Shown here in pieces: positions 1 through 12,000 of a stretch of DNA of 64,000 bases. How positions within the stretch are numbered: position 1 is the first letter of the stretch; every line of letters starts with the position of its first letter. Origin of the DNA: a virus (Duplodnaviria; Heunggongvirae; Uroviricota; Caudoviricetes); IMG/VR virus record IMGVR_UViG_646311923_000012. One strand, written 5' to 3'. The position numbers are program-made.

Positions 1-3000
1 TTACCATGAACTGCATGTATACTGACTTGTGTTCATGATTATATTAGGGTGGTTAAACTCAATAAAGTCACAAAAATGATTATAATTATGTAATGGTGTA
101 AAATTAAAATATTTCTTAACTCCTTTCCCCAAACCATCATAATATGGATGAGCATCTACTTTACTATGCATAAAAGAAAGTCCCTCAAGTAGAGCAGGAT
201 GATTACTACGGTTAACAATTATTGCACTATTTTCAATATTTACACTATCATTACGACGATCCACATGCATTGAAATTCCATCAGGAGCATATATTGTACC
301 AAGCTTACCTGTAAGTATCATATCCATATCAAGATAGATACACCCCTCCCCGAATGAAATACCGTGATTCTTTGTATTATATGTGCACCTGAATATCTCT
401 CCTGCTTTTAATAAGGCTAAATTTCTGAAGAAATCAAACCATGCATGATTTCTTTTCTTTGCATACATAGAAATCAAAGAATCCTGCGCCTTTGAAATTT
501 CCCTCAGCTCTTTCTCTAACAGATTCAACAAGTATTCATCTCTTTTGTCTTCAGTTCGTAACCTTTGTTCACATATAATATCATGATAAATATCTGATAG
601 TTTTCTGTCATACATACTGAAGTCAACATCTTCCCGATAGATTATCATTACATTTTCAAAATCTCGTTCCAATTTTGAAAAAGCAGTCTTTTGGTTGACT
701 GAAAAATCGCCATCAACAAAAATACCTATCATACGATCACTCTCTATCCTTGCCGCATTTGTGACATTATCTAAATAGGGATGCTGCTTAGTATTAACTA
801 TTGGAACCTCATCTTTCTTATATCGTTCAGGATTAGGTTCAAACCACTGAAAAAGAATAGGCGTTTTTTCATCAATGACCTTTAACTCATATTCCTTTCC
901 TGCAAAAGAAACCGTTTGACAGGGTGAACTCTGCACTATATTTACTGAGTTATGGAAAGTTGTCCTTATCGGTGAAAGCATTCGTCGTCCTGTTTATCCA
1001 TATTTTCTTCACAACTAACTCTTTAATCTATTAATTATATTGGCATACTCAACCACAAAACCTCCAGCAGTTTTGCCATCTTTGCTTTCCTAACAAACAT
1101 CACCATGGCATGCCAACAAAAACCGGAGCCGGACTCCGGTTTTTGTGAACCCGTCGGCTATTTCATCCCGCCAATATTTTCCCACGTCCCGTCAGCACGC
1201 AGGATTTGCAGCGGTCTTACCACGCACTGTATCTGCTTTTTATCCGCATCCAGTATCACCACCTGCGTGATTACCCTGGCCTGCTCCGGGATAATGCCAT
1301 TCTCATCGGACTCCAGAATGTCTGCTGGTCCCAGTCGCAGCTGTGCTGTAAGTAACTCCCCGTTTTCACTGTCATCATGCTTTCCGCAACCACACAGACG
1401 CTCCATAAGCTTTCTCAAAATATTCATGTCATTCTCCTGTTCTGCCTGTATCACTGCCCACTTCATCCAGTCCCTTAACATCCTGCCACGGCCCGTCGCC
1501 AAACCTGACCTGCAAATGCCGAAACAGCCCCTGAACCTGTGTGGCATCTTTGGGGTCAAGAAAGGTCAGTCCGGTGATGAGCGCACCATCTGTATCCGGG
1601 AACCAGCCATGGCTGTTTGTCTCAATAATGCTCGCCGGCCCCAGACGAAAACGGATTTGTGTCTCCCCCGGGTCGCCCTTCGGTCCCTGAGGTCCGGTTG
1701 CCCCCACCGGGCCAGCCGCACCTGTTTCTCCTTTCGGTCCCTGTGGGCCTGCCGGGCCTGCCGCACCGGTATCTCCCTTTGGACCCTGTGGACCTGCATT
1801 TCCCGTCAGACCGGTCTCTCCCCGCTCTCCCCTGTCACCTTTCGGCCCCTGCGGGCCTGCCGGACCAGCATCACCTGCCGGTCCCCGTTCGCCGGTTGCC
1901 CCGACAGGGCCGGTGTCACCGCGCTCTCCCTTATCACCCTTCGGCCCCTGAGGACCCGCGGGCCCCTGTTCCCCCTTTGGCCCGGGAGGTCCCACCACGG
2001 TGGGGATTCGGTTTACGGCCTCTTCCGCCGCTATCCTGCTTTGTTCCGCTGACTGTGCGCTTTCTGCTGACTCCCGGGCTTTTTCTGTTGCGGTCGTTGC
2101 ATCCCTGGCTGCATTACCGGCTGCACTTTCTGCCGTCTTTCTTGACAATTCAGCTTCTGCTGCACTTTGTGATGACTCACTGGCTTTTTGAGCGGCCGCA
2201 GAAGCCGAGGACGAGGACGCATCCTCTGACTGCTTTGCTGAGGCTGCACTTTCTGCCGCCTGCCGGGCTGACTCCGATGCCTCCCCTGCTGAAGTGTCAG
2301 CATTTGCAGCGCTCTCTTCTGCCTGACTGGCTGATATGCCGGCATTCCTCGCTGACGTCTCCGCCTCTCCGGCATTCTTCTTCGCCTCCTCAGCGTGACG
2401 CGCCACCTCTTCCACCATCAGTTCAAAACGGCGCAGAGCCTCCGGACGGGCATCATCCTCCGTCATGGCACCGAGAAAATCATTCAGCGTACCGGGTTGA
2501 GAATCTTCATACACGGTGATGGTCCCGGCATGTGACGGCGGGAATCCTTCCACCAACAGAATGACGCTGTACTGACCGTACTCAACGTCCATGCTGTAAC
2601 GCCCGGCTTCATCCGGATTTTCAGAGGCCACCGTGTTCACCACCACCGTGCTGCTGGTCCGTCTGGCTTTCAGTTGAATGGTACAGTTCTCTACCGGTTT
2701 TCCTGTGCCGTCTTTCAGTACACCTGAAATCTTTACTGCCATATTCACCCCACAAAAAAGCCCGCCTGAACCGGCGGGCTGTCATAACACTGTGTTACCT
2801 GGCTAATCAGAATTTATAGCCGATACCCACGATGAAGCCGTCAGTGCGCCAGTCGCCACTGGCGGAACCTTCATAAGCAAGGTCAATAACCACCGTCTCT
2901 ACGGGACTGAACTGAATCCCGGCATTCCAGGCCGGCGACAGATGACGCGCAGTATGACCATCACTGGCGGTGGTGGTCTCCTTCACATACCCCGGTTTCA

Positions 3001-9000: not shown

Positions 9001-12000
9001 CAATACGAAAATACGCCTCCGGCTCTGCAGAGATATTCACACAAGGGATATACCGCTCCCCCTCCGGCGTTCTCACCACGAAGCCGCACGACTCCGCAGG
9101 CACACACCGCCGGGCATGCGCCAGAATCGCTGATTCTGTCTGTGTCATTGGATTTACTGCGAAAGTTTGTTAATGGAAAGGAAACCGCCAAAATTAGCCA
9201 CCATGCCGCGCATCTCACACCCGCGCATGCACTTGCTGCATCTGTCCTTACGGATATCCGTGGTGGGGTTGTCGAACTCATCCGCCACCGCAGGACCGTT
9301 ATACCCGCATTCATCTCCCCGGTAATCCCACATACAGGTGTTCGCCAGCATGATGCGACCGGGAAACAGCGCTCCGTCCGTCTCCGTCGGTGTTGCCAGC
9401 ACAAACGAGGCTGTCATGGCCGTCAGCTCTGACATCTGCTCCACCACCCAGCGGTCGCTCAGCTCCTGCTCCGGGTCCGCTTCCGGATTGCCCGCCACAA
9501 AATTCACCGCATCCAGAAAACGGGCATACACCCGGCGGCGGACCACCGTGGCCCCCACCAGGCTCTGCAGGTCCTCCGCCATTCCGGTGACCAGACCGAA
9601 CAGATTGGACACCGTCAGCGACGGGCGGGCACTGCTGCCCTTCCCGTTCATCTCAAAGCCACTGCCGTCAATCGGGTATGCCTGATATTGCCGCCCCTGC
9701 CAGGTAACCGCCTCCCCTTTTTCATTCAGCTCATTGCAGAAAAAATACCGCTCACCACCCTGTACCGTCAGGTCGATTTCCCAGAGTACCACCCGCGGTG
9801 ACTGCTCTGATTTAACCGACTCGTTCAGACTTTCTTCGTGAATATCCTGCATCAGTTCACCACCTGCTTAAACTCCGCGCTGAATTCAACCCGCAGCATG
9901 CGAACCCGTGATGACCAGGCGGCACAGGTCACCTTTATCTGCCGCCAGGCATAAGGCGGTGTCCACAGAAACGCCTTCCAGCCACCGTGCTCTGCCAGGA
10001 ATGCCTCCAGATGTCGGGCCTCCTCCCGGGTCACGGAAAGCGTCACACGGTATGTTTTCAGGTCAGCATTCAGCCCCGCCGCCATACGCTGCGAATACCC
10101 GTCACCAAAACGCACTTCACGCACCGATGGCTGCGAGTTCACCTCCATATCCGGCTTCACTTTCCAGCGAAATGTTTTCATCGCCTGCCTCCGGAAAAGA
10201 CGCCGCCATCACGCATCTGCGCCTGAATCTCATCCTGCGCCCCCTTGCGGGCCATGTCATACACCGCCTTCATCAGCTGCGGCCCCGCCTGTCCGTTGGT
10301 GCCGTCGTTCTGAATCACCACGTGATTGTTCTGATTAAAACTAATGCCTTCCGCCCGCCGCATCTGCGCCGGACTTCCGGCACCGCCCACATAACCACCT
10401 TCCGCATACCCGCGCATCAGACGATACAGGTTGCCGACGCCAATCCGGCTGGTTGCCTCCTTCGTGAAGACAAACTCCCCGCGGTGGACAATACCGGCAG
10501 GTTCGTATTTGCCACCGGTTCCCGTAAATCCTCCGGTCGCGAAATGGAAGTTCGCCGCCGCAGCCTGAATGGCCGTCCCCGTGGAGGCAGACGCCCCACC
10601 ACCGAAAGCACCACCCATGGCGCTGCCAATACTCCCGACAATCCCCACCATGGCCTGCTTCAGAAAAATCTCTGTCAGCATGGAGAGCACAGAACGGGTG
10701 AAACCACGCCAGCTCTGTTCGCTGCCGGTCAGCATCGCTGCCATATTCTGTGCAATACCGTCAAAGGTCTGCGTGGCCACGCTTTTAACCTGCGAAAAAC
10801 TGTCCGTCGCACTTTCTGCCCACTCGCCCCAGCCGGACTTCAGACCGGCCATCCAGCTTCCACGAAGCTGCTCCTCCGCAGACCAGGTGTTCTTCAGTGC
10901 AGATGTGGCCTTCGCCAGCGCATCCGGATTATCACCGTACACGTCACGAAGGCGCTGCGATTCCGACTCCCGCTGTGCCTGACGGTCCGTCAGCCCCCGG
11001 GCTTTTGCGCTGATTGCAGCCTGCTTCGCACTCTGCTGCTGTTCAAACCGCACAGCCTGATTTGCCAGCTCATTCAGCCGTTTCTGGTATTCAACCTTGT
11101 CACCCAGGTCAGCCAGCTGGCGTTTGTACTCCAGCGTCTCTTGCTCATGGGCCAGCAGGGATTTCTCCTGTGCAGACAGCTGGCGACGTTGCGCCGCCTC
11201 CTCCAGTACCGCGAACTGACTCTCCGCCTTCCACAAATCCCGGCGCTGCTGGCTGATTTTCTCATTCGCTCCGCTGTGCTTCTCCAGCGTCCGGAGCTCG
11301 GTTTCAAGCGCCAGCAGCGCCGCATGCGTCAGGTCTTCCTGACGCTCACCGGCTGACACTTTAACACCTGACGACTTCGGCTTTTTCAGCGTCGATTCAT
11401 AATCCTTTTTCGCCGCCGCCATCAGCGTGTTGTAATCCGCCTGCAGGATTTTCCCGTCTTTCAGGGCCTTATTCAGCTCTTCCTGCCGGTTAGTATATTT
11501 CTCCAGCGGCGTCAGCAGACGCTCATACGCCTTCTGCGCCTCTCCGGTATACTTCAGCTGTGATGCGTCCCGTTCGGCCCGGTCCCTGGTAGCCAGTTCA
11601 CCGGCTTTTTCCATATCCGACTGCAGCGTGGCCGCTGCCAGCCCCAGACGGGCATTTTCCCGGTCATCCCATGCGCCCTGCAGGTTGGCACGGAAAGAGG
11701 AGGTCTTTCCCCGGCGCTGGCTCCGGCTCTGGTACCACTGCCATTTTTTATCCGCCTCATCGAATGCCTTCTGCGCACTGGCAAGCATATCCGCTGAGGA
11801 TTCCGGACGACCAATATCCAGAATGGCATCCCACATCGATTTGAACGCCTTCCCTGTTTTATCCGCCCAGGTCTCCAGCGTCCCCATGTTTTCTTTCAGG
11901 CGACGGGTCTGCTCATCAAAGCCTTTCGTGGCAGCATCGTTCGCCGCCTGTAAGGCCCCGGCCTCATCACCGGAACGCTGCAGCTGCGCAACATACGCAA

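What the first reader, a model, noticed from the sequence alone, without database searches (positions are those of the whole stretch)
1105..9852. Tail block of about 8.7 kb duplicated between the two prophages, with indel and cassette differences
Region 1105..9852 and region 50880..61684 (minus the IS at 51196..53894) encode near-identical small ORF, tail fiber, J N-terminus, I, K and L. Homology ends sharply at the L/M boundary, where M and H are clearly different alleles. Such long direct repeats are substrates for homologous recombination that could delete or invert the about 50-kb interval or shuffle tail genes.
Basis: seen in the sequence. Interest (0 to 1): 0.5.

Follow-up and report, generated by a model that had tools for sequence, protein, structure and literature searches.

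The report
Shared tail module in tandem prophages
Two different lambda-like prophages sitting side by side in a pathogenic E. coli chromosome carry the same 8.7-kb tail-tip gene module; this is a real direct repeat that shows past recombination, and it is a well-known, ordinary feature of such genomes.

Summary
Window 1125-9871 (copy A) and 50886-61703 (copy B) are direct repeats in four collinear segments of 92.0%, 96.3%, about 95% and 95.6% identity.

Three differences interrupt the repeat:
- a 2,699-bp IS66-family element in B (51196-53894, 8-bp target duplication TGTCATTC);
- a sodC gene present only in A (745 bp against 131 bp);
- a diverged cassette covering Lom (45% aa identity) and the J receptor-binding end.

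Homology stops about 20 bp inside M.

The copies belong to two distinct prophages integrated in tandem at tRNA serT, with a 60-nt att core at 48433-48492. A has lambda-type M/H and heads and carries nleB2. B has HK97-type heads and carries espK.

Recombination in the block is visible:
- B differs from its ortholog in O103:H2 strain 129 only inside the repeat.
- A 341-bp tract is identical between A and B, with 24 of 24 informative sites.
- Prophage A is itself a hybrid whose crossover lies in the block.
- Eight other genomes carry the predicted nleB2-block-M_B/H_B architecture.

Because the repeats are direct, they allow deletion (49.8-52.5 kb), duplication or gene conversion, but not inversion. 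Such events between adjacent EHEC prophages are already published. Low novelty.

The parts
1125..9871 (-). Copy A of the shared distal-tail module (prophage A). Genes on the minus strand are tfC, tfN, lom, J, I, K and L. sodC lies on the plus strand.
   Evidence: Self-BLAST and MAFFT; Pfam; 100% identity to the nleB2-prophage tail region in O45:H2/O103:H2-lineage closed genomes.
50886..61703 (-). Copy B of the shared distal-tail module (prophage B), including the IS66-family insertion.
   Evidence: It is 99.3% identical to the espK prophage at serT in O103:H2 strain 129.
B counterpart is 50919-51188; 87.6% aa identity.
   Evidence: It is a paralog of the C-terminal domain of the adjacent tail fibre (37% identity, E=1e-11).
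1429..2742 (-). tfN (A): 437-aa side tail fibre with phage_tail_N, collagen repeats and Phage_fiber_C. B counterpart is 53897-55210; 96.8% aa identity.
2807..3430 (-). Lom/Ail outer-membrane protein, A allele (207 aa). The B allele is 55275-55874 (199 aa). Only 45% aa identity, so this is a replaced cassette.
3499..6975 (-). J tail-tip attachment protein (A, 1158 aa). B counterpart is 55942-59415 (1157 aa). The N-terminal ~1000 aa are about 97% identical; the C-terminal receptor-binding ~160 aa (DNA 3499 to about 4040) are about 55% identical.
   Evidence: Ig_GpJ_C domain at residues 1035-1158.
4748..5088 (.). Longest perfectly identical A/B run (341 bp; B 57188-57528), interpreted as a gene-conversion patch.
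   Evidence: In the tract, 24 of 24 informative sites show B=A and differ from the B ortholog. In the 708-bp left flank, 52 of 52 show B=ortholog and differ from A. In 20,000 permutations none reached this run length.
6976..7720 (.). 745-bp segment present only in A (B has 131 bp, 59416-59546). It carries the sodC gene.
7109..7636 (+). sodC: prophage-type Cu,Zn superoxide dismutase (175 aa, AASC lipobox).
   Evidence: Pfam Sod_Cu, E=4e-32. A sodC CDS at the same position (I-J gap, opposite strand) is annotated in relatives as WP_000649829.1. SodC-F literature: PMC2569942.
7827..9852 (-). I (7827-8408), K (8405-9148) and L (9154-9852) of copy A. B counterparts are 59654-60235, 60232-60975 and 60986-61684. 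L is 100% identical at protein level, with 14 synonymous nucleotide differences.
51196..53894 (-). IS66-family element (ISCro1-like), 2,699 bp, encoding TnpA, TnpB and the transposase. Imperfect terminal repeats begin GTAAGCG / GTAACCG. It sits exactly between the tfN stop codon and the tfC start codon.
   Evidence: ends; NCBIfam equivalogs; the same insertion is present in orthologous B prophages.
51188..51195 (.). Left copy of the 8-bp target-site duplication TGTCATTC. The right copy is 53895-53902. The single uninterrupted copy in A is 1427-1434.
9852..12757 (-). M (109 aa) and H tape measure (859 aa, lambda type) of prophage A. This is unique sequence to the right of copy A.
61684..64000 (-). 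M (113 aa) and the start of the long HK97-module tape measure of prophage B. This is unique sequence to the right of copy B. M is 44% identical to M of A.
1..981 (-). nleB2 T3SS effector gene, the cargo flanking copy A.
   Evidence: NCBIfam NleB family, 697 bits; annotation.
49103..50464 (+). espK T3SS effector gene, the cargo flanking copy B.
   Evidence: NCBIfam EspK, 1055 bits; annotation.
48433..48492 (+). att core at the A|B prophage junction. It equals the 3' 60 nt of tRNA-Ser serT and lies downstream of int_A (47272-48291).
   Evidence: Direct alignment with the serT|B and int|yccA junctions of strain 129. ARAGORN finds no complete tRNA here.

Best explanation
The repeat is not a duplication made in this chromosome. 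It is the distal-tail module (L, K, I, J, Lom and the side-tail-fibre genes) that two independently acquired lambdoid prophages both carry. The prophages lie head to tail at the serT attachment site.

The same module is joined to unrelated partners in the two prophages:
- In prophage A it is joined to lambda-type M/H, lambda-type tail and head genes, and nleB2 cargo.
- In prophage B it is joined to HK97-type M/H and head genes, and espK cargo.

Homology therefore ends at module junctions: the L/M border on one side and the start of the effector cargo on the other.

The two copies have diverged in three ways:
- an IS66 insertion in B;
- a sodC gene in A;
- replacement of the host-facing parts, namely Lom and the J receptor-binding domain.

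Because the copies remain 92-96% identical, they exchange sequence by homologous recombination. Short gene-conversion patches are visible. Prophage A is itself a hybrid whose crossover lies inside the module.

What the direct repeat can still do is inferred, not shown. A crossover would delete 49.8-52.5 kb: all of prophage A's body, the att core and espK. That would leave one hybrid prophage of the form nleB2-block-B. Unequal sister exchange would instead triplicate the array. Inversion is not possible.
For: - Direct orientation, segment identities and breakpoints.
- Gene identities.
- Tandem integration: the 3' 60 nt of serT lie between int_A and espK. The same int-att-espK junction occurs in O121:H19 and strain 7_11_88A.
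- Different structural modules: annotation of orthologs and the lambda tape-measure domain in A.
- The L/M breakpoint 9871/61703 is identical in all nine copies compared.
- The module is ubiquitous. It matches in 4,986 of 5,426 complete E. coli genomes, up to 17 places per genome, and in 428 phage records, mostly Stx-converting phages.
- Recombination evidence 1: all 106 non-IS differences between window B and its ortholog in strain 129 fall inside the repeat, with none in 48433-51195 or 61704-64000.
- Recombination evidence 2: the 341-bp tract shows 24 of 24 sites with B=A, flanked by 52 of 52 sites with B=ortholog. No permutation in 20,000 reached this run length.
- Recombination evidence 3: prophage A matches the nleB2 prophage (P1) of EL361/UTAK-4 from 1 to about 6180. 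It matches both P1 and A' from about 6200 to 12060. From 12062 onward it matches only their yccA/serT-locus prophage (A').
- Eight closed genomes carry nleB2 + A-type block with sodC + B-type M/H within 10.77 kb, for example aEPEC E110019.
- Published precedent: a 47.7-kb deletion between adjacent O157 prophages via an 822-bp direct repeat, and Sp11/Sp12 deletions (PMC7430833); Sp5/Sp15 chimeric phages (PMC2669165).
Against: - No deletion, duplication or heterogeneity was demonstrated for this strain, because only one assembled sequence is available.
- The direction of the 341-bp conversion is unresolved. In strain 129 the same tract of B is identical to that strain's co-resident A' copy, so the event may lie in either lineage.
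- Four other patches in B have no donor inside the window.
- Divergence of 4-8%, a longest perfect run of only 341 bp and no Chi site in either block all lower the expected RecA/RecBCD rate.
- The hybrid origin of prophage A could have occurred in a free phage or in another host rather than in this chromosome.
- The left end of prophage A lies outside the window.
Confidence: 0.85

Rival explanations
1. Segmental duplication within this chromosome: one block was copied from the other prophage and then diverged.
For: The blocks are collinear, in direct orientation and only about 50 kb apart. Some tracts are identical.
Against: - Each copy has its own near-identical ortholog in other closed genomes, carrying the same IS, sodC and Lom/J cassette states.
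- Divergence of 4-8% far exceeds that between orthologs (0-0.7%).
- The boundaries coincide with module junctions seen in all lambdoid copies compared.
- The module occurs in hundreds of phage records.
Confidence: 0.03
2. Assembly artefact: a repeat-induced mis-join created an apparent tandem pair or an apparent hybrid prophage A.
For: - No complete genome in the collection matches the window end to end.
- Its left 12 kb is 100% identical to a prophage that lies 1.3 Mb away, on the other strand, in the closest relatives.
- A 5.8-kb stretch identical in both putative parents is exactly where an assembler could switch paths.
Against: - The A|B junction (int-serT core-espK) is seen in independent closed genomes.
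- The repeat itself is diverged enough to assemble unambiguously.
- Prophages with equivalent module combinations exist.
- A mis-join would explain at most the hybrid nature of A. It would not explain the existence of the two blocks.
Confidence: 0.07
3. The similarity is maintained only by purifying selection on tail-tip proteins, with no ongoing DNA exchange between the copies.
For: L is 100% identical in protein despite 14 synonymous DNA differences. I and the J N-terminus are 97-98% identical.
Against: Selection cannot produce sharply bounded tracts with 24/24 against 52/52 opposite site patterns. It also cannot confine all ortholog differences to the repeat, or give a 5.8-kb region of zero differences with two different prophages.
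Confidence: 0.05

Closest known systems
Inter-prophage homologous recombination in EHEC: Sakai Sp11/Sp12 deletions; the FRIK804 Phi804-9/Phi804-10 47.7-kb deletion via an 822-bp direct repeat; prophage-mediated 1.15-Mb inversion (PMC7430833); Sp5 x Sp15 chimeric Stx phages (PMC2669165)
   Same: The situation is the same: adjacent lambdoid prophages share direct repeats of 100 bp or more. The predicted deletion is of the same size class (about 50 kb), and hybrid prophages are formed by crossovers in shared genes.
   Different: Here the repeat is the L-to-tail-fibre module at serT in a non-O157 (O103/O45/O121-like) background. Only conversion patches and a hybrid prophage are seen; no actual deletion is observed.
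Bacteriophage lambda distal tail region (M-L-K-I-J-lom-stf/tfa) and modular mosaicism of lambdoid phages
   Same: Gene order and Pfam families match for L, K, I, J and Lom. The J C-terminal receptor-binding domain is the variable part. Mosaic joints fall at gene borders.
   Different: The side tail fibre is the collagen-repeat 'prophage tail fibre' type with an extra Phage_fiber_C ORF, instead of lambda stf/tfa. A sodC gene sits between I and J. In copy B the module is attached to an HK97-type head and tail-shaft module.
Prophage-borne SodC-F1/SodC-F2 of E. coli O157:H7 (CP-933R/CP-933V) (PMC2569942)
   Same: It is a Cu,Zn superoxide dismutase with the AASC lipobox, located in a lambdoid prophage.
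   Different: It is present in only one of the two copies here, which accounts for the 614-bp length difference between the blocks.
IS66-family insertion sequences (ISCro1 / ISEc8-like)
   Same: It has the three-ORF tnpA-tnpB-tnpC organisation, an 8-bp target duplication and ends beginning GTAAGCG.
   Different: Nothing unusual. The insertion falls in the 1-bp gap between two tail-fibre ORFs and leaves both reading frames intact.

Membership tests
Lambda-type tail-tip module (gpL-gpK-gpI-gpJ, Lom) | Proteins match the L, K (JAB + NlpC/P60), I, J (multi-domain, with C-terminal receptor-binding domain) and Ail/Lom families, in lambda gene order. | tested here: met
   Pfam hits all exceed the curated cut-offs: Phage_tail_L 307 bits; Prok-JAB + NLPC_P60; Lambda_tail_I; six J domains including Ig_GpJ_C; Ail_Lom 169 bits. 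Gene order comes from ORF coordinates.
Long direct repeat able to support RecA-dependent recombination | Same orientation, and uninterrupted identity well above the ~25-75 bp minimal processing segment. | tested here: met
   All HSPs are on the same strand. There are 13 perfect runs of at least 100 bp, the longest 341 bp. The 74-bp inflection point is quoted from PMC7430833.
Long direct repeat able to support RecA-dependent recombination | Observed recombinant (deletion or duplication) molecules in this strain. | not testable with these tools
   No reads or cultures are available. There is only comparative evidence from other genomes.
   Subject coordinates ascend with query coordinates in every HSP.
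Tandem prophages at a tRNA attachment site (serT) | A partial tRNA 3' end (att core) lies between the integrase end of one prophage and the distal end of the next. | tested here: met
   Window 48433-48492 equals the 3' 60 nt of serT. The flanks match int|core and core|espK of strain 129. The outer att sites lie outside the window.
IS66 family insertion sequence | TnpA, TnpB and a DDE transposase (TnpC) in one orientation; an 8-bp target-site duplication; terminal inverted repeats. | tested here: met
   NCBIfam equivalogs at 296, 129 and 472 bits. The TSD TGTCATTC is present once in A and twice in B. The terminal repeats are imperfect: about 18 of the first 26 positions match, counted by eye from the two end sequences printed.
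Prophage-type Cu,Zn superoxide dismutase (SodC-F) | A Sod_Cu domain, a signal/lipobox leader, and location inside a lambdoid prophage. | tested here: met
   Pfam Sod_Cu 112 bits. The leader ...LTAASCG... is read from the translation, and the lipobox is described in PMC2569942. Enzymatic activity was not tested.

The most novel reading that the evidence does not exclude
The window may capture a lineage-specific rearrangement. Prophage A is a hybrid. Its nleB2 cargo, tail fibre, Lom and J end come from a prophage that lies about 1.3 Mb away, in inverted orientation, in the closest sequenced relatives (UTAK-4, EL361, O45:H2/O103:H2). The rest of prophage A comes from their yccA/serT-locus prophage. 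The crossover lies inside the 5.8-kb identical part of this tail block. If this happened in the chromosome, the block mediated either a replichore-scale inversion or a cargo swap. Either event would have moved an nleB2 effector cluster next to the serT prophage array. That would make the module an active hotspot for re-assorting T3SS effector cargo between prophages.
Probability: 0.3. Interest if true: 0.3.

Novelty: already known. Interest (0 to 1): 0.15.

Why it matters
The finding has practical rather than conceptual value.
- It marks a place where this genome is structurally unstable. A single crossover would remove about 50 kb, including the effector gene espK and a whole prophage.
- It marks a place where short-read assemblies and prophage typing will be unreliable.
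- It gives another clean example of how a conserved tail module lets lambdoid prophages of pathogenic E. coli swap receptor-binding parts, small accessory genes such as sodC, and T3SS-effector cargo (nleB2, espK).
- It opens no new question. The phenomenon and its consequences (inter-prophage deletions, inversions, chimeric phages) are documented for O157 and other EHEC.

Tried and rejected
1. Identifying the source genome. No complete E. coli genome matches the window end to end. The best hits for 1-12000, 12000-36900, 30000-50900 and 46000-64000 lie in different strains or different loci.

2. A first short chimeric probe (3,168 bp) was abandoned. The search tool only joins pieces that lie closer than half the query length plus 500 bp. 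It was replaced by a 5,501-bp 'stepping-stone' probe.

3. Polarising the 341-bp conversion tract with outgroup copies (7_11_88A, O121) was inconclusive. The outgroups are roughly equidistant (17-19 differences) from both states, and strain 129's B tract equals its own A' copy.

4. Looking for Chi sites as a recombination stimulus. Neither block contains one.

5. A simple inversion model deriving the window from the UTAK-4/EL361 arrangement was rejected as insufficient. It predicts yccA after int_A, whereas the window has the serT core followed by espK. The order of the two serT-locus prophages also differs: A|B here against B|A' there.

6. Treating M/H as 'alleles' was rejected. They belong to different structural modules, lambda-type and HK97-type.

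
Full report
**Observation.**
A self-BLAST of the window and a global MAFFT alignment of 1000-10400 against 50760-62250 show four collinear, same-strand matches:
- 1125-1434 / 50886-51195: 92.0%.
- 1427-2893 / 53895-55361: 96.3%.
- 3426-6975 / 55870-59415: 90.1% overall.
- 7721-9871 / 59547-61703: 95.6%.

In 100-column windows the third segment splits in two. A poorly conserved part (2894 to about 4040, 50-70%) is followed by a well conserved part (4045-6975, about 95%). Homology collapses to 45-65% beyond 9871/61703.

**Anatomy.**
All genes lie on the minus strand except sodC. Translations and Pfam identify the following.

| Gene | Product | A vs B aa identity |
|---|---|---|
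| tfC | 89-aa Phage_fiber_C protein | 87.6% |
| tfN | 437-aa tail fibre (phage_tail_N, collagen repeats, Phage_fiber_C) | 96.8% |
| lom | Ail/Lom | 45% |
| J | 1158/1157 aa tail-tip protein | 91.7% overall; about 97% over the first 1000 aa, about 55% over the last 160 (the Ig_GpJ_C receptor-binding domain) |
| I | tail assembly protein | 98.4% |
| K | JAB + NlpC/P60 protein | 93.9% |
| L | minor tail protein | 100% (14 synonymous DNA differences) |
| M | minor tail protein | 44% |

Every ORF is intact in both copies.

The structural differences between the copies are these:
- The 745-bp versus 131-bp difference between J and I is a plus-strand sodC gene (7109-7636, Sod_Cu, AASC lipobox). A sodC CDS at the same position is annotated as WP_000649829.1 in relatives. 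It corresponds to the prophage SodC-F enzymes of O157 (PMC2569942).
- The IS (51196-53894, 2,699 bp) encodes IS66 TnpA, TnpB and transposase and has ends GTAAGCG.../GTAACCG....
- The IS is flanked by the duplication TGTCATTC, which is present once in copy A at 1427-1434.
- The IS sits exactly between the tfN stop codon and the tfC start codon. Both frames survive, but tfC is separated from its upstream gene.

**Context.**
The two blocks belong to two different prophages.
- To the right of copy A come lambda-type M and H (859 aa, lambda tape-measure domain) and then T, G, V, U, Z, FII, FI, E, D, C, B, W, A. These are named from annotation of near-identical orthologs.
- To the right of copy B come a different M, a long tape measure and an HK97-type head module.
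- To the left of A lies nleB2. To the left of B lie a 276-bp ORF and espK.
- Between int_A (47272-48291) and espK lies the 3' 60 nt of tRNA-Ser serT (48433-48492). This is identical to the core shared by the serT|prophage and prophage|yccA junctions of O103:H2 strain 129.

This is therefore a tandem lysogen at serT. The same int-core-espK junction is present in O121:H19 and strain 7_11_88A.

The L/M breakpoint is the same (9871/61703) in every lambda-type versus HK97-type comparison among nine copies from five genomes. The left boundary is always just downstream of tfC, where the effector cargo begins.

The module is nearly universal. It matches in 4,986 of 5,426 complete E. coli genomes, up to 17 places per genome. 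It also matches 428 phage records, mainly Stx-converting phages.

**Is it a recombination substrate?**
Three independent lines say yes.

1. Window B differs from its ortholog in strain 129 at 108 positions. Two are in the IS and 106 are inside the repeat, clustered in five patches. There are no differences in the unique espK flank (48433-51195) or in the unique M_B/H_B flank (61704-64000).

2. One patch coincides with the longest perfect A/B run (341 bp; A 4748-5088 = B 57188-57528).
   - Inside it, 24 of 24 informative sites group B with A.
   - In the 708 bp to its left, 52 of 52 group B with its ortholog.
   - A run of that length was never reached in 20,000 permutations.
   - In strain 129 the same tract of B is identical to that strain's own neighbouring prophage A'.
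   - In each genome, therefore, the tract matches a co-resident copy. Which lineage converted cannot be decided.

3. Prophage A is itself a hybrid.
   - From 1 to about 6180 it is identical to the nleB2 prophage P1 of EL361/UTAK-4. In those strains P1 lies about 1.3 Mb away on the opposite strand.
   - From about 6200 to 12060 it is identical to both P1 and their yccA/serT-locus prophage A'.
   - From 12062 onward it matches only A'.
   - The crossover is therefore inside the block.

A stepping-stone probe for the predicted A x B recombinant (nleB2 flank + block + M_B/H_B) found eight closed genomes with that architecture in 10.77 kb. In aEPEC E110019 the order is espK, ORF, nleB, tfC, tfN, Lom (A type), J, sodC, I, K, L, M_B, H_B. 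Conversely, O121:H19 has espK joined to a lambda-type M/H. The block is thus a general joint at which cargo and structural modules are re-assorted.

**What the repeat can and cannot do.**
The repeats are direct, so a reciprocal crossover deletes the interval. The deletion size depends on where the crossover falls:
- 49,761 bp for a crossover in tfC;
- about 52,440-52,470 bp in tfN or J;
- about 51,830 bp in I-K-L.

The product is a single hybrid prophage that keeps nleB2. It loses espK, the att core and the whole body of A. Whether it keeps the IS, sodC and the A-type or B-type Lom/J cassette depends on the crossover site. Unequal sister exchange would add a third prophage. Inversion is impossible.

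The expected rate is tempered by 4-8% divergence, perfect runs of at most 341 bp (13 runs of at least 100 bp) and the absence of Chi in either block. However, prophage A encodes an ExoVIII-like exonuclease, and phage recombinases are reported to tolerate divergence (PMC3945230, listed; not read in detail).

None of these outcomes was observed for this strain. They are inferences.

**Comparison with what is known.**
This is textbook EHEC prophage biology.
- A 47.7-kb deletion between two adjacent O157 prophages through an 822-bp direct repeat has been described. So have similar Sp11/Sp12 deletions and a 1.15-Mb prophage-mediated inversion (PMC7430833).

The finding is a correct description of another instance. 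It is not a new kind of element.

**Verdict.**
Interest is low (0.15).

The only mildly unusual aspect is that the window's particular combination is not found end to end in any of 5,426 closed E. coli genomes. That combination is a P1-type nleB2/tail end on an A'-type prophage placed on the serT-proximal side of the espK prophage. It may mark a lineage-specific rearrangement. An assembly path switch across the 5.8-kb identical stretch cannot be excluded without reads.

Noticed in passing
window 1-12061 versus 12062-48532: Prophage A is a hybrid. Positions 1 to about 6180 match only the nleB2 prophage of UTAK-4/EL361, which lies about 1.3 Mb away on the opposite strand there. Positions 6200-12060 match both prophages with zero differences. 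From 12062 onward A matches only their yccA/serT-locus prophage. This could reflect a large inversion or cargo swap, recombination in a free phage, or an assembly path switch.
   Followed up: partly
window 48433-48492: A partial serT (3' 60 nt) forms the att core between int_A and espK. The prophage order here (A then B) is the reverse of that in O103:H2 strain 129 and UTAK-4 (serT-B-A'-yccA). Both prophages there encode the identical integrase WP_001299351.1.
   Followed up: partly
window 51196-53894: The IS66-family (ISCro1-like) element is inserted in the 1-bp gap between two tail-fibre ORFs, with the TSD TGTCATTC. The same insertion is present in orthologous espK prophages of several serotypes, so it is old or travels with the phage. 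Another copy of the same IS lies near the nleB2 prophage cargo in EL361 (L003 197-2812).
   Followed up: yes
window 1158-1427 and 1429-2742 (also 50919-51188 and 53897-55210): The small ORF after the tail fibre is a stand-alone copy of the tail fibre's own C-terminal Phage_fiber_C domain (37% identity). It may be a spare or alternative tip domain. Its function is unknown.
   Followed up: partly
window 27561-30150: Prophage A has the layout typical of Stx phages: a tRNA cluster (Arg-tct, Arg-tcg, and a CAT-anticodon tRNA called Met by ARAGORN and annotated tRNA-Ile in relatives) followed by a 616-aa SASA-family esterase. Only 489 bp lie between them and no stx genes are present, so this looks like an stx-less relative of Stx phages.
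   Followed up: no
window 25208-47005: There are eight Chi sequences on the minus strand and two on the plus strand in prophage A's lysis and early region, against about 0.7 expected per strand. There are none in either tail block.
   Followed up: no
L005/L006 (O121:H19 FWSEC0006, 3.36-3.44 Mb): O121:H19 has an analogous tandem pair. Its left prophage abuts torT at its cargo end but serT-core/espK at its int end. Its espK prophage carries lambda-type M/H. This suggests further inter-prophage rearrangements at this locus.
   Followed up: no
L004/L001 (strain 7_11_88A, 3.21-3.30 Mb): This strain has three lambdoid prophages in a row. The middle and right ones share not just the tail-tip block but the whole HK97-type structural module, giving a much longer direct repeat than in the window.
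   Followed up: no
window 1748-1866 and 54216-54451: Internal collagen-like (G-X-Y) repeats within the tail-fibre gene give weak off-diagonal self-matches (72-74%).
   Followed up: no
window 3499-6975: J of copy A is an intact 1158-aa ORF in the window. The near-identical orthologs in EL361 and strain 129 are annotated as frameshifted pseudogenes.
   Followed up: no
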